A stretch of 64,000 nt of DNA from Mobula birostris (GCF_030028105.1 NC_092378.1:106939731-107003730), one strand, 5' to 3'. Shown: positions 4,444-64,000, counted from the first letter of the stretch. Notes: generated by a model from the letters alone, not told the origin. Numbers and translations are program-made.

Positions 4444-6262
4444 CGCGAACACGACGAAATCTGCAGATGCTAGAATTTCAAGCAACACACATAAAAATTG
4501 CTGGTGAATGCAGCTGACCAGACAGCATCTATAGGAAGCCGTACAGTTGACATTTCGGGCCGAGACCCTTCATCAGGACTAACTGAAAGGAGAGATAGTA
4601 AGAGATTTGAAAGTGGGAGGGGGAGGGGGAGGGGGAGATCCGAAATGATAGGAGAAGACAGGAGGCCTTATTCCGCTAGACGGAGCAGAGTGGTGGTAGA
4701 GGGGAACTGGTTAGGTCTGGAATCCAAAAGGAAGCGGAGAGCTTTAAGACCTTCCTGGTGGGGGATGGAAGTATATAGGGACTGGACATTACCACCACTC
4801 TGCTCCGTCTAGTGGAATTAGTCCTTACTCTTAATAATTTCTCCTTTGGTTCCTCCCACTTCCTCCAAACTAAAGGTGTAGCCATGGGCACCCATATGGG
4901 TCCCAGCTATGCCTGCCTTTGTGTTGGCTTTGTGGAACAATCCATGTTTCAAGCCTATACTGGTATCTGTCCCCCACTTTTCCTTCGCTACATCCACGAC
5001 TGCATTGGCGCTGCTTCCTGCACGCACGCTGAGCTCGTTGACTTCATTAACTTTGCCTCCAACTTTCACCCTGCCCTCAAGTTTACCTGGTCCATTTCCA
5101 ACACCTCCCTCCCCTTTCTTGATCTTTCTGTCTCTATCTCTGGAGACAGTTTATCTACTGATGTCTACTATAAGCCTACGGACTCTCACGGCTCTCAAAC
5201 GCATCTCTCCCATTTCACGCACATCTGCTCTCACCCCATCCTCCCGCCACCCCACTAGGAATAGGGTTCCCCTTGTCCTCACCTACCACCCCACCAGCCT
5301 CCGGGTCCAACATATTATTCTCCGTAACTTCCGCCACCCCCAACGGGATCCCACCACTGAGCACATCTTTCCCTCCCCCACTCTGCTTTCCGCAGGGATC
5401 ACTCCCTACGCAACTCCCTTGTCCATTCGTTCCCCCCCCCCATCCCTTCCCATCGATCTCCCTCCTGGCACTTATCCTTGTAAGTGGAACAAATGCTACA
5501 CATGCCCTTACACTTCCTCCCTCACCACCATTCAGGGCCCCAGACAGTCCTTCCAGGTGAGGTGACACTTCACCTATGAGTCGCCTGGGGTGATATACTG
5601 CATCCGGTGCTCTTGATGCGGCCTTCTATATATCGGCGAGACCCGACGCAGGCTGGGAGACGGTTTCGCTGAACACCTACGCTCTGTCCGCCACAGAAAG
5701 CAGGATCTCCCAGTGGCCACCCATTTTAATTCCACGTCCCATTCCATTCTGATATGTCTATCCACAGCCTCCTCTACTGTAAAGATGAAGCCACACTCAG
5801 GTTGGAGGAAGAACACCTTATATTCCGTCTGGGTAGCCTCCAATCTAATGGCATGAACAGTGACTTCTTTAACTTCTGTTAATGCCCCACCTCCCCTTTG
5901 TACCCATTATTTTTTTTTCTCTCTCTCTCTCTCCTTTTTCTCCCTCTGTCCCTCTCATTATACCCCTTGCCCATCCCCTGGGCTTCCCCCCTCCCCCTTT
6001 CTTTCTCCCTAGGCCTCCTGTCCCATGATCCTCTCATATCCCTTTTGCTAATCACCTGTCCAGCTCTTGGCTCCATCCCTCCCCCTCCTGTCTTCTCCTA
6101 TCATTTCAGATCTCTCCCTCCCCCTCCCCCTCCCACTTTCAAATCTCTTACTAGCTCTTCTTTCAGTTAGTCCTGACGAAGGGTCTCGGCCCAAAACGTT
6201 GACTGTACCTCTTCCTATAGATGCTGCCTGGCCTGCTGCGTTCACCAGCAATTTTTATGTGC
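4444..6262 (+). mobile_element. Penelope-like retroelement with inverted terminal (pLTR) arrangement, internally deleted
   Basis: RT motifs KGVAMG and LRYIHDC and a GIY-YIG relic. 4444-4665 is an inverted copy of the 3' end and 4666-4790 an inverted RT piece. 12 bp TSD ccagcttaataa at 4432-4443 and 6263-6274. Confidence 0.9.
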
Positions 6263-9219: not shown

Positions 9220-10352
9220 GTTTCCAGGATGAAGGAGATGTCCTTTTTTAAAGAAGGGAGCTTCCCTTCCTCCACCATCAATTCTCTTCTCAAACACATC
9301 TCCCCCATTTCACACACATCTGCTCTTGCTCCATCCTCCTGCCACCCCACCAGGAATAGCGTTCCCCTTGTCCTCACCTACCACTCCACCAGCCTCTGGG
9401 TCCAACATATAATTCTCTGTAACTTCCGCCACCACTAAGCACATCTTTCCCTCCCCCCCCGCTTTCCGCAGGGATCGCTCCCTACGCAACTCCCTTGTCC
9501 ATTCGTCCCCCCATCCCTCCCCACTGATCTCCCTCCTGGCGCTTATCCTTGTAAGCGGAACAAGTGCCATACATGCCCTTACACTTCCTCCCTCACTACC
9601 ATTCAGGGCCCCATACAGTCCCTCCAGGTAAGGTGACACTTCACCTGTAAGTCGGCTGGGGTGATATACTGTGTCTGGTGCTCCCGATGCGGCCTTCTAT
9701 ATATTGGCGAGACCCGACGCAGACTGGGAAAACGCTTTGCTGAACACCTACACTCAGTCCGCCAGAGAAAGCAGGATCTCCCAGTGGCCACACATTTCAA
9801 TTCCACCTCCCATTCCCATTCTGATGTCTATCCACGGCCTCCTCTACTGTCAAGATGAAGCCACACTCAGGTTGGAGGAACAACACCTTATATTCCGTCT
9901 GGGTAGCCTCCAACCTGATGGCATGAACATTGACTTCTCAGACTTCTGCTAATGCCCCACCTCCCCTTCGTACCCCATCCGTTATTTATTTATTTATATA
10001 CACACATTCTTTTTCTCTCTCTCCTTTTTCTCCCTCTGTCCCTCTCACTATAGCCCTTGCCCATCCTCTGGGCTTCCCTCTCTCCCCCTTTTCTTTCTCC
10101 CTAGGCCTCCTGTCCCATAATCCTCTCATATTCCTTTTGCCAATCAAATGTCCAGCTCTTGGCTCCATCCCTCCCCCCTCCTGTCTTCTCCTATCATTTC
10201 GGATCTCCCCCTCCCCCTCCCACTTTCAAATCTCTTACCAACTTTTCTTTCAGTTAGTCCTGACGAAGGGTCTCGGCCCGAAACGTTGACTATACCTCTT
10301 CCTAGAGATGCTGCCTGGCCTGCTGCGTTCACCAGCAACTTTTATGTGTGCT
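9220..10352 (+). mobile_element. Penelope-like element, 3' portion (GIY-YIG endonuclease)
   Basis: IYCVWCSRCGLLYIGETRRRLGKRFAEH; same family as 19677-21607; hammerhead motif at ~10256-10291. Confidence 0.88.
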
Positions 10353-12846
10353 TGTATTCCCTTTCCCACACTTTACTCTCTCTCCATCTCCTACTCAAAG
10401 CAAAGATAGGGTAGCCCTATCTACCCCTCCAACCTCCAGATTCAATGGACCAATTTCTGGCACATTCAATGAGATGCTACTAGCAATATTCCAAATGGAC
10501 TGTTGCCTTCTTGACCTACACAGGCAGAACTGGACCAAATGGCCCCTTAAGCTTGCCCTATCATTTAATCATTGCTGCCCTTCCTCAGGCCTCAACCTCC
10601 TCTCATGAGCTGGTAAGCAAAACTACCACCTGTGTTGGAGACTTGCTCACTGCCTGTAACGTAATATGTGTTTTGAAACTGATTTCATTGCATTACTATG
10701 ATTCATGAACACAAGGTCACAACACATTGAAAAAATAACCAAGTTATAAGAGAACAAGTTATTCAGCAGGATAAAACAGGAATTTATTATGAATCACATT
10801 TCTCTCACAGTATTTCTCATCTTTGATACAATACAAGAACACCATTGTAAAACATGAAAATAAGTTCAATCTGCCATTATATCTAAATATTATAACGTAC
10901 CCAAACCATAAGCAGTTAATTTCAAAACACATTAAACTACATATGGTAAAATGAACGTTGATTAAAATCAGTGTAGCGTTTTGGAGTACATACAAAGAAA
11001 ACCACACAGCACAAAGTAATAATATTGTCACATTCTCAAGGTAACTGGTACTCTGCACATACAAGGTCACCAATGAAGAAATACAGTTTTGAAATTTTAG
11101 TACTTTAGTAATGTGAACTTCTGTTTCATCTAAAATTAAGTTTTCTATCTTTGTATTAATTCATCTGCCTACAAAGGTAGGTTGGATTAAATTGGCAATC
11201 TGTTTTTGGCATGTTTAATTTAATGATTTTTAATCAGTGAATGCGCAAAATGTTGACATCTGTGTAATCAATTTGTGTCATTGCCTAACACAAAAGAAGT
11301 TAAGATTGCAAGTATGTAATACAAAATAAGCAGTGAGAATACACATCAATAAATTAGTCATACAGATACAATATATCAACCATTTTGTAAATATATATAA
11401 TCATCAACTAGTACTCTTTGGAGGCATTTAAAACTTAATTAGAATATTGAGTTTATCAATTTAAAACCTGAAGCATAAAGTTCATGCCGATAGCAACAAT
11501 TCATTTTGCTGTGATCATTAAACTGAATTTTTATTTACACCAACATCCGGTTGCTCATGAAAGAAGAAACAAAAAGTGGCCTTTTTCATGACTTCAGGAA
11601 ATTGTACAGTGCTTATAGCCCATGAATTATTTCCGAAATCCGGTCACTACTGTAATATTGCAAATAAGGCAGCAAATTTATATAGCAAACTTCCAGAAAC
11701 AAGGACAAAGTAACTTAAAAATACCCAAATTATCTATTTTATTCCTTGAAGAATAAATATTGGCAAGTACATCAGGGTGAACGGCTCTGCTTCCTAGAAA
11801 TGTCACGGTATATTTTAATTCAAGAAATCCAATTCAACATTGCATCCAAAAAACGCATTAGTCACTGGAGTCAATCTACTGTACTAGACTGAATGATATG
11901 GTTCTGGCTCTGAAATGAGTCTTAAACTATAACCTTATGACTCAGACAAAAGTCTGACAGCCAACCAAGGCAGAAAAATTACTGTGCATTGTTTTTGCAA
12001 CTTCAGCCATTAGTTTTTTCTTGTAATTTGTATATTGAAGTATTATAGATCTTTTCCCACATATTAAAATAACCTGCTCAATACTGGCAATCAATAACTT
12101 AAGGCCATTTGGCATATCTTCAGCCACAGCTGCAGAAATATTTTATTGGTGAAGATGGCACATTGACACAATATAATCACAAATCAGAGCTTCTTGATTT
12201 CCCAGTGTTTTTTTTTAATAAATTAATTGACCTGTTTTAAAATGGAAACTTATTTTCTCCACAACTCTTTTCAAAAGTGCACTGAAGCTTCTTTGCTCAG
12301 CCAGGTTTCTTCATTAATAAAGATCTAGGAGGAGCAATAAGTTTGTAATTAAATGCAATTAAAATGCTTCTTTATATTGTAGTTAGCATAATTTTAAACA
12401 AAGCACCATATAACCATATACAAATTATAATACAGAGCAAGGTTCACAGTATTCATCATCGATTGCCTGATAGAAACCCTGTTCTTAAAGTCAGATTTTG
12501 TGAATGTCATTTTTGGGTACCCTTAAGTCTTAAAAATGATGCAATTTGTAAAAAGATACTTTTCAGAATGTCAAAACAATTTAAAGTAAAAATAAATCCT
12601 AGCAAATCCATCAACGTGCATTTTCTGTCATTTTTTTTCCAAATCTGGGATGATCATATGTAGTGGTTTGAAATCACCTACCTATCTATATTTGACTTGA
12701 GCACATAAAAGGTTACATTTTATATAATTACAACTCCCTAAATTATTTTGGTCTAAAATTGGAGTGCAACAATACATGGAAGCAGTAAGCAAAATACATT
12801 GTTCCAAGTCATCTTTATCTTACATTCCTCTGGCATCATACAAATA

Positions 12847-19676: not shown

Positions 19677-21607
19677 ACTACGCTCATTTCTGCATACCTC
19701 GACACTGTTTTATCACCCCTTGTTCAATCCCTTCCGACCTATGTTCGTGACACTTCTCACGCTCTTAAACTTTTCGATGATTTTAAGTTCCCTGGCCCTC
19801 ACCGCTTTATTTTCACCATGGATGTCCAGTCCTTATATACTTCCATCCCCCATCAGGAAGGTCTCAAAGCTCTACGCTTCTTTTTGGATTCCAGACCTAA
19901 TCAGTTCCCCTCTACCACCACTCTGCTCCGTCTAGCGGAATTAGTCCTTACTCTTAATAATTTCTCCTTTGGCTCCTCCCACTTCCTCCAAACTAAAGGT
20001 GTAGCTATGGGCACCCGTATGGGTCCTAGCTATCCCTGCCTTTTTGTTGGGTTTGTGGAACAATCTATGTTCCGTGCCTATTCTGGTATCTGTCCCCCAC
20101 TCTTCCTTCGCTACATCGACGACTGCATTGGCGCTGCTTCCTGCACGCATGCAGAACTCGTTGACTTTATTAACTTTGCCTCCAACTTTCACCCTGCCCT
20201 CAAGTTTACCTGGTCCATTTCCGACACCTCCCTCCCCTTTCTAGATCTTTCTGTCTCTATCTCTGGAGACAGCTTATCCACTGATGTCTACTATAAGCCT
20301 ACTGACTCTCACAGCTATCTGGACTATTCCTCTTCTCACACTGTCTCTTGCAAAAACGCCACCCCCTTCTCGCAATTCCTCCGTCTCCGCTGCATCTGCT
20401 CTCAGGATGAGGCTTTTCATTCTAGGATGAGGGAGATGTCTTCCTTTTTTAAAGAAAGGGGCTTCCCTTCCTCCACTATCAACTCTGCTCTTAAACGCAT
20501 CTCCCCCATTTCACGTACATCTGCTCTCACTCCATCCTCCCGCCACCCCACTAGGAATAGGGTTCCCCTGGTCCTCACCTACCACCCCACCAGCCTCCGG
20601 GTCCAACATATTATTCTCCGTAACTTCCGCCACCTCCAACGGGATCCCACCACTAAGCACATCTTTCCCTCCCCCCCCCCCGCATTCCGCAGGGATCGCT
20701 CCCTACACAACTCCCTTGTCCATTCGTCCCCCCCATCCCTCCCCACTGATCTCCCTCCTGGCACTTATCCGTGTAAGCGGAACAAGTGCTACACATGCCC
20801 TTACGCTTCCTCCCTTACCACCATTCAGGGCCCCAAACAGTCCTTCCAGGTGAGGCAACACTTCACCTGTGAGTCGACTGGGGTGATATACTGCGTCTGG
20901 TGCTCCCAATGTGGCCTTTTATATATTGGCGAGACCCGACGCAGACTGGGGGACCGCTTTGCTGAACATCTACGCTCTGTCCGCCAGAGAAAGCAGGATC
21001 TCCCAGTGGCCACACATTTTAATTCCACATTCCATTCCCATTCTGACATGTCTATCCACGGCCTCCTCTACTGTAAAGATGAAGCCACACTCAGGTTGGA
21101 GGAACAACATCTTATATTCCGCTGGGTAGCCTCCAACCTGATGGCATGAACATCGACTTCTCTAACTTCCGCTAGGCCCCACCTCCCCCTCGTACCCCAT
21201 CTGTTTCTTATTTTTATGCACACATTCTTTCTCTCACTCTCCTTTTTCTCCCTCTGTCCCTCTGAATATACCTCTTTCCCATCCTCTGGGTCCCCCCCCT
21301 ACCTTGTCTTTCTTCCCGGACCTCCTGTCCCATGATCCTCTCGTATCCCCTTTTGCCAATCACCTGTCCAGCTCTTGGCTCCATCCCTCCCCCTCCTGTC
21401 TTCTCCTATCATTTTGGATCTCCCCCTCCCCCTCCCACTTTCAAATCCCTTACTCACTCTTCCTTCAGTTAGTCCTGACGAAGGGTCTCGGCCTGAAACG
21501 TCGACTGCACCTCTTCCTACAGATGCTGCCTGGCCTGCTGCGTTCACCAGCGACTTTGATGTGTGTTGCTTGAATTTCCAGCATCTGCAGAATTCCTGTT
21601 GTTTACG
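19677..21607 (+). mobile_element. Penelope-like retroelement (RT + GIY-YIG), 5'-truncated, young copy
   Basis: Open frame with FTMDVQSLYTSIP, KGVAMG, RYIDD and VIYCVWCSQCGLLYIGET; one frameshift near the C-terminus; complete 3' tail. Confidence 0.93.
21471..21506 (+). ncRNA. Minimal hammerhead ribozyme motif in Penelope 3' end
   Basis: AGTC-CTGACGA-A-GGGT(CTCG)GCCT-GAAA-C-GTC^GACT: stem I AGUC/GACU, stem II tetraloop hairpin, palindromic ACGU in place of stem III. Confidence 0.75.
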
Positions 21608-32971: not shown

Positions 32972-33131
32972 CTTGAATAAAGAGAATATAGTAGGCCCCA
33001 GTATTGGTAATATGAATCAGGGGACTGGAAGGCATGAAACCTTTGGTAATATTGCGGTACACTTTTTCACCAATGGGATCTCCATTCTTTCCAGATATTA
33101 GCAGGAAAATCAATGTATTAACTGAGATACC
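32972..33131 (-). CDS. FAM234A: FAM234A coding exon 5
   Basis: GISVNTLIFLLISGKNGDPIG...LIHITNTGAYYILFIQ; cctag / gtaac; 160 nt. Confidence 0.9.
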
Positions 33132-33168
33132 CTAGGAGCAAAAACACAGAACTCATTCTAAATGCATA

Positions 33169-36100
33169 TGTAAGGCTATAGACAAACCCTGCTCCTCAGT
33201 GTCTAGGGAAACCCCGCAACCAGCCAACCACGTAAGCCAGTTTATGTGGAGGCTGCATAAATGCCCAATTCACAGGTCAGACAGAACATCATAAGCGGTT
33301 CAATACGTATACTTTATAAATCTTGCCGTGAATATCGGTTAACAAAGAATACACTCTAAAAGAATAAAATGAAAGGCGCCAAAGTTCAAATGGAGTTTTA
33401 AAAGTCAGTGCACCTAAGGCTTTGTTGGAGCTCAATATCCCGCAGAACCTCAACCCTCCGTCCTTGGCCTCCGACGACCCGCACGGGACCACACCTCGGG
33501 TGGTCAACCAGAGCGCCTCTGATTGCGACCTTCCTCCGTCTTCTCCACCCGATAAACCCGCCAAACCACATGGTCCCCAGCCATATGAGACAGAATATCA
33601 CCCACAAAAAGAATAACATAGACACCCATTGGTTCGTTCTCCCCCTTATCAATAATATAACCCAAACAAGCAGGGGAGAGAGAGAACTCCTTACATCGCA
33701 GTTATTATTACAGAAAAGCCATTTTATATAACATACAAAGAAGCCATTTTAGACATCTCAGCAGCCATTGTAACCAAGACCCAGTTACACTCTGCCCCCA
33801 CCAAATAAAGTCATGTCCTCATGACATTAAAGGAGTTCACCAATCCTCCTTGCAAAACACATAACCCAACCCAGGTGCATAAAGCAGTGACATAACTTCC
33901 CAGGGCGGTAGAGATCACACCTTGTTCTCCCCGTGCTACATAGGTCAACCTCTCCGGGGGGGGTTCCTACTTCTCTGAGACCTCTGTACCTCCTCTGGTG
34001 ACCCTTCCGGCTCAGACACCACTGGAGATATCTCCGGTCTGCTTGCCAAATCCTCTCTGAGTCTCTTACTCATGCCCCCACTGCAACCTGGAGCCTCCTG
34101 TCCTGTGTCTAGACACCCCTGTCTCTCCTTCAGGCTCCTGCAGTAACCCAGGCTGCCCACAGCTAGCCCCCCCCAGCCCCACCTCACCTGCCTCAGTGGG
34201 CCAGGAGTCTCTTCATCAGCAAGGGGAAGTTAGTGAAAAGCAGCATGCAACACACCTTCATCTCATCATCCTTTGAATCCACATTCTTCTCCCTTTCCTT
34301 GATTTGTAGCTGCTGTTTGGTTTTCTCCAAACTGGAGCACTTGGCCTGAGCTGCCCCTGCAGCCTCTTCAGCCTCCTGCAAATCGAGGCGTCAGCTTCTT
34401 CACTAACTCCTCTGCTTCCAGCCGCAGTAGTTCAGACTCACGCTGTGTGTTCATCTCTATCTGGGACGCAGTTACACCACCAGCTTCTTCCAAGCTGTTC
34501 TGGATCAATTTCTCCAGTTTCTGCTGATCCTTTCGAAGGTTGGTCATTGTTTCATCTCTCTGGATTACTTCACCAGTAAATGACTGCAGTTTCAGCTCGG
34601 AATTCAGTTTCCCCGTCTTCACTTTGACAAGCGTAGACTCCAATTCTTCAATCTTTGTCCCAAAATTGCAGCACTCAGTCTCCAGCCTGCATCCCTGAGC
34701 GTTCAGTTCAGCGGTGCAAATTTCCTCTCTCAGCAGAACAGTCACGAGCTGCGTCCTTCTCCAGACTTGGCACTCATCCAAATAAAGTTTTACTTCGTTA
34801 ACCCCTAGTCGCCTGGGATCCCTCACTCGCCTTGCTTCATAGTCGTCCAAGGCGAATCCCACAGAGACACACCAGCACTTATTTAAACAGGGCAAACATG
34901 CAGCATCCTACAAAAATCCATATTCCGGACGAGCCCCCAGAATGTAAAGCTATAGACAAACCCTGCTCATCAGTGTCTAGGGAAACCTTGCAACCAGCTA
35001 ACTACGTAAGCCAGTTTATGTGGAGGCTGCGTAAACGCCCAGTTCACAGATCAGACAGAACACCATAAGCGGTTAAATACGTACACTTTATAAATGTTAC
35101 TGCGAATATCGGTTAACAAAGAATACACTCTAAAAGAATAAAACAAATGTAACTGGATCTTGGATACACTGGCTGCTGAGGTGTCTAAAATGGCTTCTTT
35201 GTATGTTATATAAAATGGCTTTTCTGTAATAATATCTGTGATGTAAGGAGTCCTCTCTCTCCCTGCTTGTTTGGGTTATATTATTGATAAGGGAAGGAAC
35301 GATCCAATGAGTGTCCATGTTATTCTTTTTGTGGGTGATATTCTGTCTCATATGGCTGGGGACTGTGTAGTTTGGAGGGTTTTTCGGGCAGAGAAGACGG
35401 AAGAAGGTCGCATTCAGTGGCGCTCTGGTCGACCACCTGAGGAGTGGTCCCGGGCAGGTCGTCGGAGGCCGAGGACGGAAGGTCGAAGTTCTGCGGGATA
35501 TTGAGCTCCAACGAAACCTTAAGTGCACTGACTTTTAAAACTCTATTCGAACTTTGGCGCCTTTCTTTGTGTAAGGAGTTTCTTCTTTCATGTTACTTGC
35601 TGACGCTAATAAAATGGTTTCTCTGTAGTGTTGTAATAAAATGGCTTCTCTGTAATTTTAACTGATGTGGTAATGTTCTCTGTAGCAGCATGTTTGGGTT
35701 ATAATTAGTGATAATGGGACGTATTCGTTTGCTAACCAACTGGGATAGATGTTATTCTTTCTTGTGTATGTGAAAGCTGTTGTTCACGCGGGATTTGAGG
35801 GAAAAGGCGCGAGGAGGATGAAGAGAGAAGAGGTGGCTTGAGGAGACGGTTGCCGGACCCGCTAGGCCTGGGCTTGGGGCAGGACCCCAGGGGCCAACTA
35901 GCGGAGGAGGATCAGCGAAAGGGCATCAGTGGGCTCCAACGTTTGTGCACTGGACATGTTTATGAGATTATTGGCGCCTTTTATTTGTTTTCCTTTTCTT
36001 TTGTTTCTCTACTAACCCCATACTTAGATATAAAATCTTAATCGTTTAACCACACATTGTGGACTGAATGTTATTTTGGGGTACTGAGGTTAAACAGGGG

Positions 36101-36198
36101 ACACAACTCGCAGCATCCACCCAAACAAGAGTGCTAAAGTATGGCCAGGGAGGGGCCCCACCCCCGCGATCATGCCACTAGATGCAATGAGTCTTACA
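33169..36198 (-). mobile_element. Gypsy-type LTR composite: non-autonomous element A (minus) joined to solo LTR B (plus)
   Basis: LTR 33169-33789 (TG..CA), PPT 33790-33803, tRNA-Pro PBS 34922-34939 (TGGGGGCTCGTCCGGAAT). Second LTR split into 34943-35143 (direct) and 35148-35565 (inverted). LTR B 35570-36198 (TGTAAG..CTTACA). CATA flanks both outer ends. Confidence 0.88.
34255..34740 (-). pseudogene. Captured myosin heavy chain tail fragments inside LTR element
   Basis: IEELESTLVKV, LEEAGGVTASQIEMNTQRESELLRL and LQEAEEAAGAAQAKCSSLEKTKQQLQ match sarcomeric myosin II rod motifs; frameshift near 34380. Confidence 0.8.
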
Positions 36199-36374
36199 CA
36201 TACATATCTGCCAGTCATATTCAACGCAACCACCTTGTACAAAGTCAAAAGTGCACGTGCTTGAAGTTAATGTAGTAATTATCAATTACTTTACAGTTTG
36301 CTAATTCTTTATATAAATGACCACACGGTATTGACTTCTTAAAAAATTTTATTTAGTGATAACAGTTTGGAGTA

Positions 36375-37923
36375 CAGGTTTCCCCTGCCATCCGAAGGTA
36401 AAGCGTTCCTATGAAACAGTTCGTAAGCCGAAATGTCATAAAGCGAAGAAACAATTACCATTTACTTATATGGGAAAATTTTGTGAGCATTCGCAGACCC
36501 AAAAATAACCTACCAAATCATGCCAAATAACACATAAAACTTAAAAATAACGGTAACATATAGTAACAGCTGGAACGATATGATAAATACACAGCCTATA
36601 TAAAATAGGAATACTTCTCTACAATCATTGCTGCACTGGTCTCCGTAGCGAAAATCTCACGCAAGCACTCTTGGCAGAAACACTCTCTCCAGTAACCTTT
36701 AAGCTATGAAGCTGCCAATTCATACCAAATAACACATAAAAATACACAGCCTATATAAAGTAGAAATATGTATGTACAGTGTATTATCACTTACCGAAAT
36801 TGGGAAGACAGCGCCAAGCACACTGATAATGGTGTTAGGCTGAGTCGTTGGAGGTTGGGGTGGTGAAGTGGCCCCCAACCTCCGGACCGCCGACCGATAC
36901 CGATCCGCGAAGAATGCAGCGGTCGTCGGAACGCACCCAGCACATCTTTAAGAAAAAAGCCGAAATAAACAAGCAAATTAATTAGGTGCCACCCGGCACG
37001 TAAATGTCGGCCCAGATCAGAGGAGACACAATTGGCAATCGCCTCTGATCTAGGTCGACATTTACGTGTCGGGTGGCACCTAATTAATTAGCTTGTTTAA
37101 TTTTGGGTTTTTTTCTTAGATGTGCTGGGTGCCTACCGGCTACCGCTGCATTCTCCACAGCCCAGGGGTTGGGTTGCTTTGTTTCCATCAGGGCTGGCAG
37201 GTCATCTTCTTCTATGTCTGCCTGCCTCAATGTTGAAGGTCGAGGTTCGTCGTCTGCTGTGGCCGATGTGGAAGGCTTGCTTGACTGCTTAGCCTTACAC
37301 ATTTTTCTATCATACAGTTCTTTGTAAGCACTCAAACCATCTTGCAAATATGCCCTAAACCGACATACCCTTTCAAAATTAAAGTCGTACTTTATCATTG
37401 CAGCGAAAATCTCACGCAGTTGCTTCACGTTCAGTTCCTGGGCGTCTTCACTTTTGGTCCGTTTGCTACTGCATTCGATTTCGATTGTTATCCTTTCCTC
37501 TTCCAATTGCATCAGCTCTTCATCTACCAGTTCTTGGTCAAGGGATGCCAAAACCTCTTCAACATCATCTTCCTCACCTTCCACATGCCAAACTCACTTT
37601 GTCCTTACTTTGTTCACCACGATCGAAATGCTTAATTATGTCTAGTTTTACACTAACACCCAACGAGCTCTTTTAGGCTTTTCCAATACCTTAGAAGTCA
37701 CCTTGCTAACGGCTGCTCACGGGCACGTGTTTAAGCAATGCCGGCTAGAATGCAGTTCCGGGGGAGGAGCTCGGCTGCTCGGGGCGCACGCTGCCTTTTA
37801 GCGCGCGCTGCTTTTTTCGTAACAGTGAAAACACCTTCTGTTAGCGAATTCTGTTAACTAATGTAGGTCTTTCATAACAGTGAGGTTTCGTAAATCAAAC
37901 GTTCGAAAAGCGGGGGACACCTG
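36375..37923 (-). mobile_element. Tigger/pogo DNA transposon, internally deleted
   Basis: TA-flanked imperfect TIRs caggtttcccctg / cgggggacacctg; acidic transposase C-terminal relic (ORF 37084-37584). Confidence 0.82.
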
Positions 37924-43371: not shown

Positions 43372-43667
43372 CTGAAATACGATAAATGAAAAAATATTTT
43401 CAGGTCTCAATATCTTATTTCTGTTTAATGAATTGAGTATGTTTGTATCTTCTCAAATAGCAAGAACTCAAGAAAATATAACCAAACTGCTTTTAGAAAT
43501 CTTGAAATTATTGACCTGTCGATAAAACTAACAAGTAAAATTTAACATAAAAAAGTAATATTTCTTTAAAATGATAAACATTTAAATCCATATTGCTCTT
43601 ATTATTTTGCATCATTTAATGTAATTATCCAAGACCCAAGAATGATAAGAAACACATTTAACTTTAC

Positions 43668-43938
43668 CTGCATTTTCAAATGTTCTGGTCCATGTCCTTT
43701 GTGATGAAGGCCTCACTGGGCAAGGAATTACAAAGGAAAATGCAAACACCACAACAAGGCATAAAAATAAGACCAAGAAAAAGGCAGCGGTTCTCCACCA
43801 GGAAAGCTGACGAAATTTTGTAACCTTTTTGGACTTGGTTTCTTTGGGCTTGTCAGAAGCTTCATTCAAGTCTTGAGTTCTGACTTCTTCATTTTTCAGA
43901 GGATGTATCTCTGCCTCTAAATCTTTGTTTTCAGTCAT
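43668..43938 (-). CDS. FAM234A: FAM234A coding exon 1 (start codon, TM segment)
   Basis: MTENKDLEAEIHPLKNEE...AAFFLVLFLCLVVVFAFSFVIPCPVRPSSQRTW; donor CAG|gtaaag; 271 nt. Confidence 0.95.
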
Positions 43939-45579
43939 ATTCCTAGTCTACATCACAATACAAATAGCTGAGTTTCTTATTCAGAACGTTCTTCTCCTCT
44001 TGCAGCAACTCTCCTCACCTTGCCAGTACACTTCCTGTAAGGGTTAAAAACAGAATTTACACAATACAGAAACCTTTCTGTCACTGTGAACATCAGGTGA
44101 AAGAATATCCATTCAGCAGAAAGTAATCTCTTCTATTTGCTCATCATTATTTTGCAAAAATCTTCCAGAAAATATAATTTCAAGTCCCAAACAACCACGG
44201 TTTATTAGACTCACCAACAGAAGACAGAAAGGGAAGTTACACAACACCACAAGAAATGTAATCAGCACACTTACGTCACTGGTGCAACAGAAAAGTCTAT
44301 TAAGTGACATGAGAAAACCTGTTTATTACAGAAACAAGTTCTAGATATTCAAGTATTACTTTTGGGAACATGAAAAACATGAATTAGGCCATTTGGCCCG
44401 TCAAGTCTGCTCTGCCATTCAATCATGGCTGATCCTCCCCCCCACCTTAACCCCAGTTCCTGGCCTTCTCCCTGTAATCTTTGATGCCATGTCCAATCAA
44501 GAACCTATCAATCTCTACCTTAGTAAGACCATAAGACATAGGAACAGACTTAGGCTATCTATAGTCCAATTAGCAGCAAAATCCAAACTGCTGGAGGAAG
44601 TCAGCAAGTCAGAAAGCATCTGTCAAGACAAAGGGATAGTCGATATTACAGGTTGAGACCCTACATCAGGACGAGATTTTGTATCAGAACTCTGGCCCAT
44701 TGACTTCCACCAGTAATTTGTTTTTGGTCAGATTATAGCACCTGCTGCCTTTTGTACCTGAATCACCCATTTTGCAGCAACAAACAATCTGCTGGAAGAA
44801 TCCAGCGGGTTAAGCAGTATCTGTGGGACGAAAGGAATTATCAATGATTCAAGTCAAAACACTACATCAGGACTAAAGTCTTCCAGAGGATTTTTTTTTG
44901 CTCCAGATTCCAGCACCTGCTGTCTCTTGTGTAACCCAATTTGTGTTTGGTTTCTCCAGAGCAGAGGTCATATTTTTGTCAACCATCCCTCTCTTCCTTT
45001 TTGATTTATCTGTATATTCTAGCCTGCTGGCATGTCATGAATTTCACAACAATAGTAATATTTTACATAAAGAAGTTACTGCCTTTAACAGCCACACTAT
45101 TTCACTCTATAGTAGAAATTTTCTTTGTTGCCCTCCTCTGTTACCTAAGGTAACCAATTTTCTTTCTTTCTCTGTTCTGAGGCTTACAGACCCACTGAAC
45201 TGTTGCTACATTTTCTACTTTTATCTAGATTAGTTCCATTTAAGCTTTTTCATAAACACCAACGATTCAAAAAGACATTGACCCAACAAAAGCAACGACA
45301 GAAAAAAATTTATTTAGTAACATTTCAGATACATTTATCTAGTAATATTTGCAACATGAATAATATGTTATATTATTCAAGTCTATGCTGCATTTTTCCA
45401 TGTTTAAAATTGAAAGTGACGTTATAAATTTAAATAAGAAATCAAACAAGTTCATCTTTATGAAAGACATCTTTCACTCCATATAGAAATCTCACCATAT
45501 TTCGAGAATCATGCATATATATCAGGGCGCGCATGGTTTTTGAAATACAGTGGATATATAGACACAAACGCACACGTAA

Positions 45580-62027: not shown

Positions 62028-63218
62028 TAAATCTACTGATCGCTGTCTAATTTAAGATGAACATTGATTTACTTGAAAGCCGAGAGAAACTGAAGTTATT
62101 TTCATAGGACAGGAAAGGCTGAAGAAATTTGGCAAGGATTCATAATTGTGTAGAGTTTTGTTAATAAAGGAAAGGAAGTATACATTCCCAAAGTAAAATA
62201 AAAGAAAAATACTTGGAAGTTTCTATTTTCTGGAATATACCTACTGACCGATTGGGGGAAGCACAATTGATAACTTTTGTAAGGAAAATTGGCAAAGGTA
62301 TGGAAGGCGAGGTATGGGTTAGATAGTGGAACTACAGTTGACTCTTTCAAAGAGTCAGCATAGAGGTAATGGAACAAGTTACAGCCTCCTGTTTATTATT
62401 AAATGATAGTAAACTACTGTTGTAGGTGTGAATGCAGTCAAAGGTGAGAGAATCTGTAAAAAGCATTGCAGTTTGCTGCACAATCTTCTCCATTCTTCAG
62501 TATTCACTCTTCTGTACAGGCTTCCACCATTAGAATCCTAATAATAAATTTTCATTCCAAGCCTTTGTGTTTATACCAGAAGATTCAAGGAGGAAAATCC
62601 TGGCATTTATTTTAAAATAAGCATCAATTAACCAGTGTCAGACACATAGTTGAAATAGTCTGGCAGCTATTTGCATGTGTTACTCAATTTTGGTATTCAT
62701 TGCACAAAATATTTGCTTGTGTTTACAATTTTAACATTTGTGGGTCTTGTGCAAAGCCAAAATCTTTGAACAAGTGGAAATGTGAGCAAGCAAATTTCTT
62801 TTCAAGTATTTACTAAGGTTTTGATTGGTTGGCCTTTCTATCAGGAAACTGCCATACTAAATTTCTTCCAACAACATGCAACCTGCTGGAGGAACTCAGT
62901 GGGTGAGGCAGCATTTATGGAGGGAAATGAACAGTCATTGTTCCACATTGAGACCCTTCATTGGGCCAGAGGAAATCTCAATGAATGCTGCCTGGCCCAC
63001 TCAGTTCCTCCAGCATGTTTTGTGTCCATCATTGCAGTCGTTTATTTCTACTAAATTTCTTTGTTTAGCTGGCAAATAATCAAACACTGAGGTAAAAGAA
63101 ACTGCAACGCACAAAGGGTTCAACCTGACTGCAATTATTCTGTTGTTTCATGTTCTTAGAAATGTGTACTGTGGTTCTCCATCTTACTACTGTTAACCAT
63201 TGCTTGAAACATTTACAG

Positions 63219-63407
63219 ATCAAGGTCACGGGATCACCGGCGGAGACGCTCTAGTTCTCCTGCTCACGAGCGACGTAGGTCTAGGTCAAGGTCCAGGTCC
63301 AGAGAACGAGAAAGACGCCGCAGGCACAGATCTCGTTCACATAGCCGCAGCAGAGGACATTGTCGCAGCTCAAGAGACAAAAGCAGGGACCGGAGTTCAA
63401 AGCATAA
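63219..63407 (+). CDS. LUC7L: LUC7L exon 9 (RS domain)
   Basis: SRSRDHRRRRSSSPAHERRRSRSRSRS...DRSSKH; donor TAA|gtaaga; read-through gives AAG TAA. Confidence 0.93.
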
Positions 63408-64000
63408 GTAAGACTCATGAAGTTATTGAAGTTTTAAGTTTCTGGAATATCATTCCTACTCATTATGATATTAATTCTGTGTTAAGACTGCAACAGGTTA
63501 TAACCCCTTTTATGACTGAATATAACCTGTGCAGTTAGCTACATATTTTATTTGTATTAATTTTTATTGTTGGTATGGATTTTAAGAGGAATCTGTATAC
63601 GATGACCCTGAACACAGGTTATGTTTGTAAAATGTTGGCAGAATTATTTACCTGATCGTCGTAATTGAAGATCTAACCAGTTATTCATGTATGATTTGTT
63701 GTATTTAATAGTTGGAGATTCGTAGCTTTTTCCAAGGTTCAGCTGTTCCATCAAAGATCCATGCTCTTAGAATTGTAAAACACTCTTTCCAATTAGCTTA
63801 CCTTCCCCTTAGGGGGATTAGATTATAGTGATGGGTTTGATGTGCTGTCATTATGTGTGAGTGTCTTTTTAGCCTTATTCAAGAAATGTAATTGAGAAAT
63901 ATGGATAAAGTGAAACTAGTTACCACCACCAGCACAAATTAATTTTGCTGTGATTGAGAAACCTATTTGTGATTAGTTAAACATTTCTTATGAGTATTTT

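What the first reader, a model, noticed from the sequence alone, without database searches (positions are those of the whole stretch)
33165..36202. LTR composite whose junctions fit concerted integration by ends of two different retrotransposons
Seen: the 5' LTR of element A is broken at 35143. The order is [U5 part] caaa [TGTAAC... inverted U3 part, 35148-35565] tttg [TGTAAG... a related but distinct LTR B, 35570-36198]. caaa and tttg are reverse complements, and each abuts a clean TG LTR terminus. One 4 bp TSD, CATA (33165-33168 and 36199-36202), flanks the whole 3030 bp. Established: Gypsy integrases make 4 bp staggered cuts, and autointegration produces inversions with the duplicated target in inverted orientation. 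Inference: A's U3 end (in cis) and B's U3 end (in trans) attacked the same site within A's own LTR. The chimeric molecule then integrated through the two remaining U5 ends, and B later collapsed to a solo LTR. This would be a fossil of a mixed-family integration complex. Caveat: the intact left LTR has a single t where caaa is expected, so a small indel must be assumed.
Basis: partly seen in the sequence, partly recalled or inferred. Interest (0 to 1): 0.75.

Follow-up and report, generated by a model that had tools for sequence, protein, structure and literature searches.

The report
Retrotransposon pair with swapped integration ends
Two dead, related jumping genes sit in one intron of a ray gene with their four ends joined crosswise, which most likely records one integrase complex gripping ends of two different elements, though an ordinary nested insertion followed by an exact flip would leave the same letters.

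Summary
The anatomy is exactly as reported: CATA, element A (minus strand), its 5' LTR cut at caaa, the U3 piece inverted, tttg, a solo LTR B, CATA. A read-derived contig also puts B's end on the right flank, so a flipped assembly is unlikely.

A normal nested insertion of B followed by one 1051-bp inversion between the 5-bp TGTAA termini gives identical letters. A random inversion would hit these termini about once in 3,000 candidate pairs, so I favour swapped ends, 0.55 against 0.30. The tests that separate the two, the age of B and outgroup rays, could not be run.

A is a non-autonomous Gypsy derivative carrying myosin cDNA pieces, so it needed a borrowed integrase. It is a single inert fossil and a new variant of aberrant integration.

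The parts
32972..33131 (-). Host exon, FAM234-like; the composite lies in the intron upstream of it, 31 nt from the acceptor AG
   Evidence: AG/GT borders and open frame; PF23727 Beta-prop_FAM234A_B E 3.8e-5, 22.8 bits, below the 26.4 cut-off
33165..33168 (.). Host target duplication CATA, left copy, joined to A's U5 end
   Evidence: junction bridged in X1, X5 and X6
33169..33789 (-). Intact 3' LTR of element A (621 bp); single t at 33370 where other copies carry the 4-mer
   Evidence: family copies at a different flank end at 33169 (records 10 and 18)
33790..33805 (-). Purine-rich tract abutting the 3' LTR (polypurine tract position)
   Evidence: sequence
33806..34921 (-). Internal region of A: no intact gag or pol; holds pieces of sarcomeric myosin heavy-chain coding sequence (about 34300-34730) and a by-eye likeness to a Gypsy Pol C-terminal motif near 33928-33954
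   Evidence: PDB hits to myosins only: E 2e-4, MYH7 920-1019, plus a weaker stretch ending near 1175; E 8e-5, MYH7 1397-1432. Relative P0001 is 38-42% identical and also hits Ty3 RT. No significant tblastn to P0003
34922..34939 (-). Primer-binding site 3 nt inside the 5' LTR; the tRNA-Pro assignment is recalled, not from a call
   Evidence: sequence
34943..35143 (-). U5-side piece of A's broken 5' LTR, in place next to the PBS
   Evidence: 184 of 201 identical to the 3' LTR
35144..35147 (.). caaa: one copy of the internal 4-bp target, joined to A's own U3 end
   Evidence: native in other copies (joint 35147 to 35565)
35148..35565 (+). U3-side piece of A's 5' LTR, inverted, beginning at the exact LTR terminus
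   Evidence: 381 of 418 identical to the 3' LTR
35566..35569 (.). tttg: inverted second copy of the internal target, joined to B's U3 end
35570..36198 (+). Solo LTR B (629 bp), a related high-copy subfamily, opposite in sense to A's body
   Evidence: 77% to A over 35610-35717; a family copy stops matching at 35569 and runs on into other sequence (record 6); depth in the thousands
36199..36202 (.). Host target duplication CATA, right copy, joined to B's U5 end
   Evidence: X1 contig 36170-36395 with 0 differences

Best explanation
Swapped-end (two-molecule) integration in one germ-line cell. Shown: four precise LTR termini sit on two 4-bp duplicated targets in crosswise order. Inferred: the cDNAs of A, a non-autonomous element that must borrow an integrase, and of a related element B were present together. 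Integrase paired U3 with U3 and U5 with U5 across the two molecules. The U3/U3 complex cut A's own 5' LTR at caaa, about 420 bp from A's end. A's end attacked the opposite strand, flipping the U3 piece, and B's end took the other half-site. The U5/U5 complex integrated at CATA in the intron. The order of the two steps cannot be read: if U5/U5 went first, the U3/U3 attack is what resealed the chromosome harmlessly inside the element. B later lost its body by LTR-LTR recombination, or arrived as a single LTR. The product is inert.
For: The order equals the like-end mixed pairing. Both duplications are 4 bp and abut unclipped TGTAA termini, with no filler or loss. caaa is native in other A copies. 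A and B share TGTAA termini, so cross-recognition is plausible. A holds myosin cDNA pieces and no detectable integrase, so it was mobilised in trans. Contigs that are A-like up to 35291-35308 and B-like from 35734-35750 exist in 4 of 4 runs, consistent with mosaic LTRs and co-activity, though this is weak. A's own LTR is a tethered target, whereas the rival needs a random hit by B plus an exact inversion; only 1 of 3,163 inverted pairs of 5 bp or more in the locus gives this product. B has no more CpG left than A's LTRs (o/e 0.58 against 0.68-0.88), and the listed family contigs differ from A and B about equally (11-13%), so there is no sign that B is much younger; both are weak. Precedent: autointegration inversions (PMC2644782, PMC7197481, passages), concerted integration of separate LTR oligonucleotides in vitro (PMC11054761, passages), bimolecular piggyBac/Sleeping Beauty events in cells (PMC3952818, passages).
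Against: The sequence alone cannot exclude nested insertion plus inversion. I found no in vivo rate or example of LTR-element intasomes built from two cDNAs in 10 literature searches. Only one locus is known, and no second chimera appeared among the 15 of 66 joints shown. B's collapse to a solo LTR is assumed. A and B differ strongly in U5 beyond the first 5-6 bases (6-7 mismatches in 15). The ages of A and B were not measured against each other. The inner junctions are not read-confirmed in the listed pieces.
Confidence: 0.55

Rival explanations
1. Two ordinary integrations and one inversion. A integrated (CATA), B later inserted in the same orientation into A's 5' LTR (caaa) and became a solo LTR. 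The 1051-bp block from B's U5 end to A's U3 end was then inverted between the shared TGTAA/TTACA 5-mers, either by a double template switch at B's fresh integration gap or by later microhomology-mediated repair.
For: It gives the identical order and is the only cognate product one block-inversion away. Every step is individually common: nested LTR insertions and solo LTRs (PMC11899658, passages), and host polymerases priming on short homologies at viral ends (PMC5041404, Discussion read). If the first breakpoint is fixed at B's fresh U5 junction, there are only about 10 TGTAA/TTACA partners within 3 kb, so the second landing on A's terminus is about 1 in 10.
Against: No long inverted homology exists to guide such a flip; the breakpoints share 5 bp with 0 bp outward extension. 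A generic microhomology inversion would choose this pair about once in 3,163 (456 within the 3' half). Both junctions must be perfectly reciprocal. No un-inverted joints (35147 to 36198, 35148 to 36199) appear among the 15 of 66 joints shown, although single-copy joints of depth 6-20 do appear; both organisms laid postdate the insertion, so this says little.
Confidence: 0.3
2. B was there first as a solo LTR with its own CATA duplication. A later inserted at B's edge by one-ended integration, its U3 end self-attacked, and host repair joined the broken LTR to B.
For: Double insertion at one target site is documented (bioRxiv 10.1101/158386, passages), and one-ended integration with host repair can append viral DNA in either orientation (PMC5041404).
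Against: Double insertion keeps the target site in the junction, but the A/B junction has tttg and no CATA. One-ended events usually clip the end and do not give a clean 4-bp duplication (PMC5041404); here all ends are intact.
Confidence: 0.06
3. Assembly artefact: an ordinary nested A/B locus whose 1051-bp block was flipped by the assembler at repeat boundaries.
For: The un-flipped state would be entirely ordinary. No listed contig bridges the two inner junctions.
Against: An independently built X1 contig at single-copy depth joins B's end to the right flank with 0 differences over 36170-36395, of which 24 letters are B-specific; this is short of the tool's 31-letter rule. The window has no N. 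No un-flipped joint is among those shown.
Confidence: 0.04

Closest known systems
Autointegration inversion circles of retroviruses and LTR retrotransposons (HIV-1, PMC2644782; Arabidopsis SISYPHUS VLP DNA, PMC7197481; passages read)
   Same: An LTR end attacks the opposite strand of its own cDNA, inverting the segment and duplicating the target in inverted orientation.
   Different: There both ends of one cDNA are consumed and the product is a dead circle. Here only A's U3 end is used in cis, the partner end is B's, and the product is chromosomal with one host duplication.
Bimolecular transposition of piggyBac and Sleeping Beauty in cells (PMC3952818, passages) and in vitro concerted integration of separate LTR oligonucleotides (PMC11054761, passages)
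   Same: A DDE enzyme pairs ends from two separate DNA molecules.
   Different: Those are DNA transposons or test-tube reactions. This would be a natural germ-line LTR-element case, between two subfamilies.
Synchronous L1 insertions with target-site heteroduplications in tumours (bioRxiv 10.1101/2024.08.27.596794, passages)
   Same: Two concurrent retroelement insertions exchange half-sites, so each target duplication is split between junctions and a reciprocal inversion results.
   Different: L1 uses target-primed reverse transcription and second-strand priming in trans, somatically and over megabases. Here the ends are integrase-type and one target lies inside the element itself.
Complex or tandem LTR insertions under one TSD (PMC1950507, abstract only; PMC11899658, passages)
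   Same: Two LTR elements under a single host target duplication.
   Different: Those share an LTR, as in head-to-tail arrays from template switching or recombination. Here the outer ends are U5 and U5, which reverse transcription of one RNA cannot produce (inference), and there is an internal inverted duplication.
LTR-mediated retrocopies (PMC5131818, passages)
   Same: Element A's internal region holds host mRNA pieces (myosin rod) in place of retrotransposon ORFs.
   Different: This explains A's non-autonomy, not the junctions.

Membership tests
Ty3/Gypsy LTR retrotransposon derivative (element A) | Two LTRs with TG...CA termini, PBS and PPT | tested here: met
   the tRNA-Pro identity of the PBS is recalled
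Ty3/Gypsy LTR retrotransposon derivative (element A) | Ty3/Gypsy-type RT with PR-RT-RH-IN order | tested here: inconclusive
   No RT or IN detected in A itself. Relative P0001 hits Ty3 RT (4ol8, E 2.3e-7), and its RT region is 57% identical to P0003, which has PNMA-RT-RH-IN order. The assignment is indirect.
Ty3/Gypsy LTR retrotransposon derivative (element A) | 4-bp target duplication as the family norm | tested here: inconclusive
   Both duplications here are 4 bp. Flanks of other copies were not available, and one search gave no paper on this clade in its listing.
Classical autointegration inversion product | An LTR end joined to an internal site of its own element, with inversion and inverted target duplication | tested here: met
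Classical autointegration inversion product | Both ends of the same cDNA used at the internal site; circular, unintegrated product | tested here: not met
   A's U5 end is on the host CATA and the second end at caaa is B's
Ordinary nested insertion | Inner element flanked by a direct repeat, outer element colinear on both sides | tested here: not met
   B is flanked by tttg and CATA, and the U3 piece is inverted; met only if a later inversion is added
Inversion by ectopic recombination between inverted elements | Long inverted homology with chimeric copies at both breakpoints | tested here: not met
   Breakpoints share 5 bp only; no second B copy at the caaa junction
Double insertion at one target site | Host target site retained in the junction between the elements | tested here: not met
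   The junction is tttg|TG with no CATA
Two-molecule (swapped-end) concerted integration | Each target duplication shared by ends of two different elements | tested here: met
   also met by the nested-plus-inversion history
Two-molecule (swapped-end) concerted integration | Both elements integrated at the same time (same age; no species with one alone or un-inverted) | not testable with these tools
   No genome held. The two organisms laid differ by 6 of 453 bases, far less than the LTR split of 9.4%. No copies found in viral, metagenome or prokaryote collections or through a B reading frame.

The most novel reading that the evidence does not exclude
This is a natural, germ-line-fixed record of a vertebrate LTR-retrotransposon integration complex built from ends of two different cDNAs (U3 with U3, U5 with U5), belonging to different subfamilies that shared one integrase. 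The same reaction aimed at host DNA instead of the element's own LTR would create inversions, deletions or translocations with clean LTR ends. That would make LTR elements direct, integrase-driven rearrangers, as DNA transposons are in alternative transposition (recalled), and such crosswise TSD pairs could be counted genome-wide.
Probability: 0.5. Interest if true: 0.68.

Novelty: new variant of a known kind. Interest (0 to 1): 0.5.

Why it matters
Textbook integration uses the two ends of one cDNA, and autointegration is regarded as a dead end. If the favoured reading holds, ends of two different LTR elements can be paired in a living germ line, and a suicidal self-attack can be rescued into a heritable insertion. 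It gives a searchable signature: a split LTR, an inverted 4-bp duplication, and U5/U5 outer ends under one TSD. If the rival holds, it shows LTR termini acting as exact inversion breakpoints on 5 bp of homology, which is less striking. Either way it is one inert intronic fossil with no sign of function.

Tried and rejected
No genome was held for this window, so no genome-wide survey of A or B copies was possible. Motif scans for family LTRs found 0 matches in viral contigs, metagenome contigs and prokaryote genomes. A protein search with a chance reading frame of B, meant to date B, found nothing. Folding the inverted piece as single-stranded DNA gave no unusual structure (z -0.16), so a hairpin-guided inversion has no support.

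Considered and rejected: (1) An inversion circle of A recombined into a solo LTR. This needs the outer LTR in A's sense and family, but B is antisense and a different subfamily. (2) Recombination between B's U3 and A's U3. By inference this leaves B in the opposite orientation. (3) The t versus caaa difference as CpG decay without an indel. Family contigs show the 4-mer register. (4) Homogenisation between the 420-bp inverted arms. U3 and U5 diverged equally (37 of 418 against 17 of 201, Fisher p = 1.0). (5) A's ORF as gag. It is myosin-derived. (6) The other inversion in the window (4663-4789) as a second case. It is the 5' end of a Penelope-like non-LTR copy, judged from sequence and recalled motifs.

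Earlier-findings look-ups by place, by sequence and by junction words returned nothing.

Full report
Observation. The structure is as described. On the + strand: CATA (33165-33168), a complete 621-bp LTR in reverse orientation (33169-33789), a purine tract and 1153 bp of internal sequence ending in a primer-binding site (its tRNA-Pro identity is recalled), the U5-side 201 bp of the second LTR (34943-35143), caaa, the U3-side 418 bp inverted (35148-35565), tttg, a 629-bp LTR B (35570-36198), CATA. The two pieces match the intact LTR at 184 of 201 and 381 of 418 positions, K2P 9.4% overall and equal in both parts. All six termini read TGTAA inwards. Each 4-mer has about a 0.6% chance by composition. 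The locus lies in an intron of a FAM234-like gene, 31 nt upstream of an acceptor AG (the Pfam hit is below its cut-off). The only relatives found for A's reading frame, in a search limited to longer proteins, are 2 Mobula gene models among 1,958 candidates, so the host is very probably a ray.

Read evidence. I laid 4 of the 16 listed runs, all of them contigs. In 3 of 4, a contig joins 35147 to 35565 on the opposite strand with 5 shared letters and nothing between, at 1.5 to 7 times single-copy depth. Other family-A LTRs therefore read through the break with one copy of the 4-mer. B also has TTTG at about the homologous place. The left junction is bridged in organism A with 0 differences and in organism B with 6 differences in 453. 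An X1 contig at single-copy depth covers 36170-36395 with 0 differences, putting B's U5 end on the right flank; only 29 letters lie on the B side, under the tool's 31-letter rule, and X1 may be the source sample. Against completeness: no listed piece bridges the inner junctions, and the tables are cut (15 of 66 joints, 32 pieces shown). X1 may not be independent, and organism B is too close (1.3%) to predate an insertion whose LTRs differ by 9.4%.

What A and B are. A has no detectable RT or integrase. Its long frame and a second frame hit only myosin chains in the PDB: MYH7 residues 920-1019, a weaker stretch ending near 1175 and 1397-1432. Its relative P0001 carries both myosin pieces and a Ty3-like RT fragment, and that fragment is 57% identical to a full PNMA-RT-RH-IN polyprotein. 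So A is a non-autonomous Gypsy derivative with captured host cDNA, the kind described in PMC5131818 (passages read). Two earlier AI findings of this scan say the same of a ray family; they are leads, not support. B is a related, high-copy LTR: 77% alike over about 110 bp of U3, barely alignable in U5, depth in the thousands. Contigs that are A-like in the first ~150 bp of U3 and B-like after it occur in 4 of 4 runs. This may reflect recombination between co-packaged subfamilies or merely intermediate subfamilies.

Mechanism. A symbolic enumeration of four LTR ends on four half-sites gives 24 assignments, 12 of which keep all pieces. The observed order is the mixed like-end one: A-U3 with B-U3 at caaa, A-U5 with B-U5 at CATA. 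The same enumeration shows exactly one ordinary product, B nested in A's 5' LTR in A's orientation, that is one 1051-bp inversion away. The letters are the same in both histories because every terminus starts TGTAA.

Weighing the two is a matter of coincidence. The inversion would have only 5 bp of homology and no outward extension. The locus holds 3,163 inverted pairs of 5 bp or more at 200-3000 bp spacing, after removing 336 due to LTR-LTR homology, so a generic event would choose these termini about once in 3,000. If the inversion started at B's fresh integration gap, only about 10 partner 5-mers lie within 3 kb, and the rival becomes respectable; host polymerases do prime from viral ends on short homologies (PMC5041404, Discussion read). 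The swapped-end model needs no coincidence of position, because A's own LTR is a tethered target and A needs a borrowed integrase anyway, but its in vivo rate is unknown. Weak age hints show no younger B: CpG o/e 0.58 against 0.68-0.88, and similar distances to the listed family contigs, which are the longest ones, not the closest. My estimate is 0.55 swapped ends, 0.30 nested plus inversion, 0.06 B first, 0.04 artefact, 0.05 other. These odds are judgement, not computed.

Comparison with known systems. It works like autointegration at the internal site (PMC2644782, PMC7197481; passages) but fails membership, since the second end is foreign and the product is integrated. It works like bimolecular transposition (PMC3952818, passages), like in vitro concerted integration of separate ends (PMC11054761, passages), and like synchronous L1 insertions with split target duplications (bioRxiv 10.1101/2024.08.27.596794, passages). 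It fails the tests for nested insertion, double insertion (bioRxiv 10.1101/158386, passages), ectopic inversion (PMC12368964, passages) and shared-LTR complexes (PMC1950507, abstract; PMC11899658, passages).

Literature coverage. Ten searches (listings seen, with up to 20 papers listed per search) showed no description of this geometry for LTR elements. The library lacks most subscription journals, including the older J Virol autointegration work, and I opened no supplements, so absence from print is not established.

Verdict. The feature is real and precisely formed. It is a new variant of aberrant integration, at a single locus and without function. Interest 0.5.

Noticed in passing
window 34300-34730 (-): Element A's internal region is made of non-contiguous pieces of sarcomeric myosin heavy-chain rod sequence (MYH7-equivalent about 920-1019, near 1155-1175, 1397-1432) in a high-copy family.
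   Followed up: partly
window 33132-33168: The 3-kb composite sits only 31 nt upstream of the acceptor AG of a FAM234-like exon, in the zone where a branch point would be expected; any effect on splicing was not tested.
   Followed up: no
window 33368-33789 and 35148-35568: The rearrangement created a 422-bp inverted repeat at 91% identity around 1358 bp; it shows no sign of homogenisation relative to the direct-repeat U5 parts.
   Followed up: partly
window 35242-35262: An internal stretch of A's U3 resembles B's U3 terminus (first 10 bases identical), suggesting that the two subfamilies differ by a shifted or duplicated LTR start.
   Followed up: no
window 4663-6261, 9222-10361, about 19700-21603: Three copies of a Penelope-like RT element (class recalled from motifs, not searched). 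The copy at 4663 has a 127-bp inverted 5' piece like a twin-priming product; the copy near 19.7 kb is part of a 791-aa stop-free frame whose first half is a different RT.
   Followed up: no
window 36300-37600: Very high-copy repeat right of the composite (depth above 150,000) with a 169-aa transposase-like frame at 37084-37593 (-) and a 116-bp inverted repeat at 36911-37154; the class is not tested.
   Followed up: no
window 43612-43947 (-) and about 63197-63538: A transmembrane-encoding frame that probably belongs to the same FAM234-like gene (by eye; no Pfam hit to that family), and a frame whose opposite strand looks Arg/Ser-rich.
   Followed up: partly
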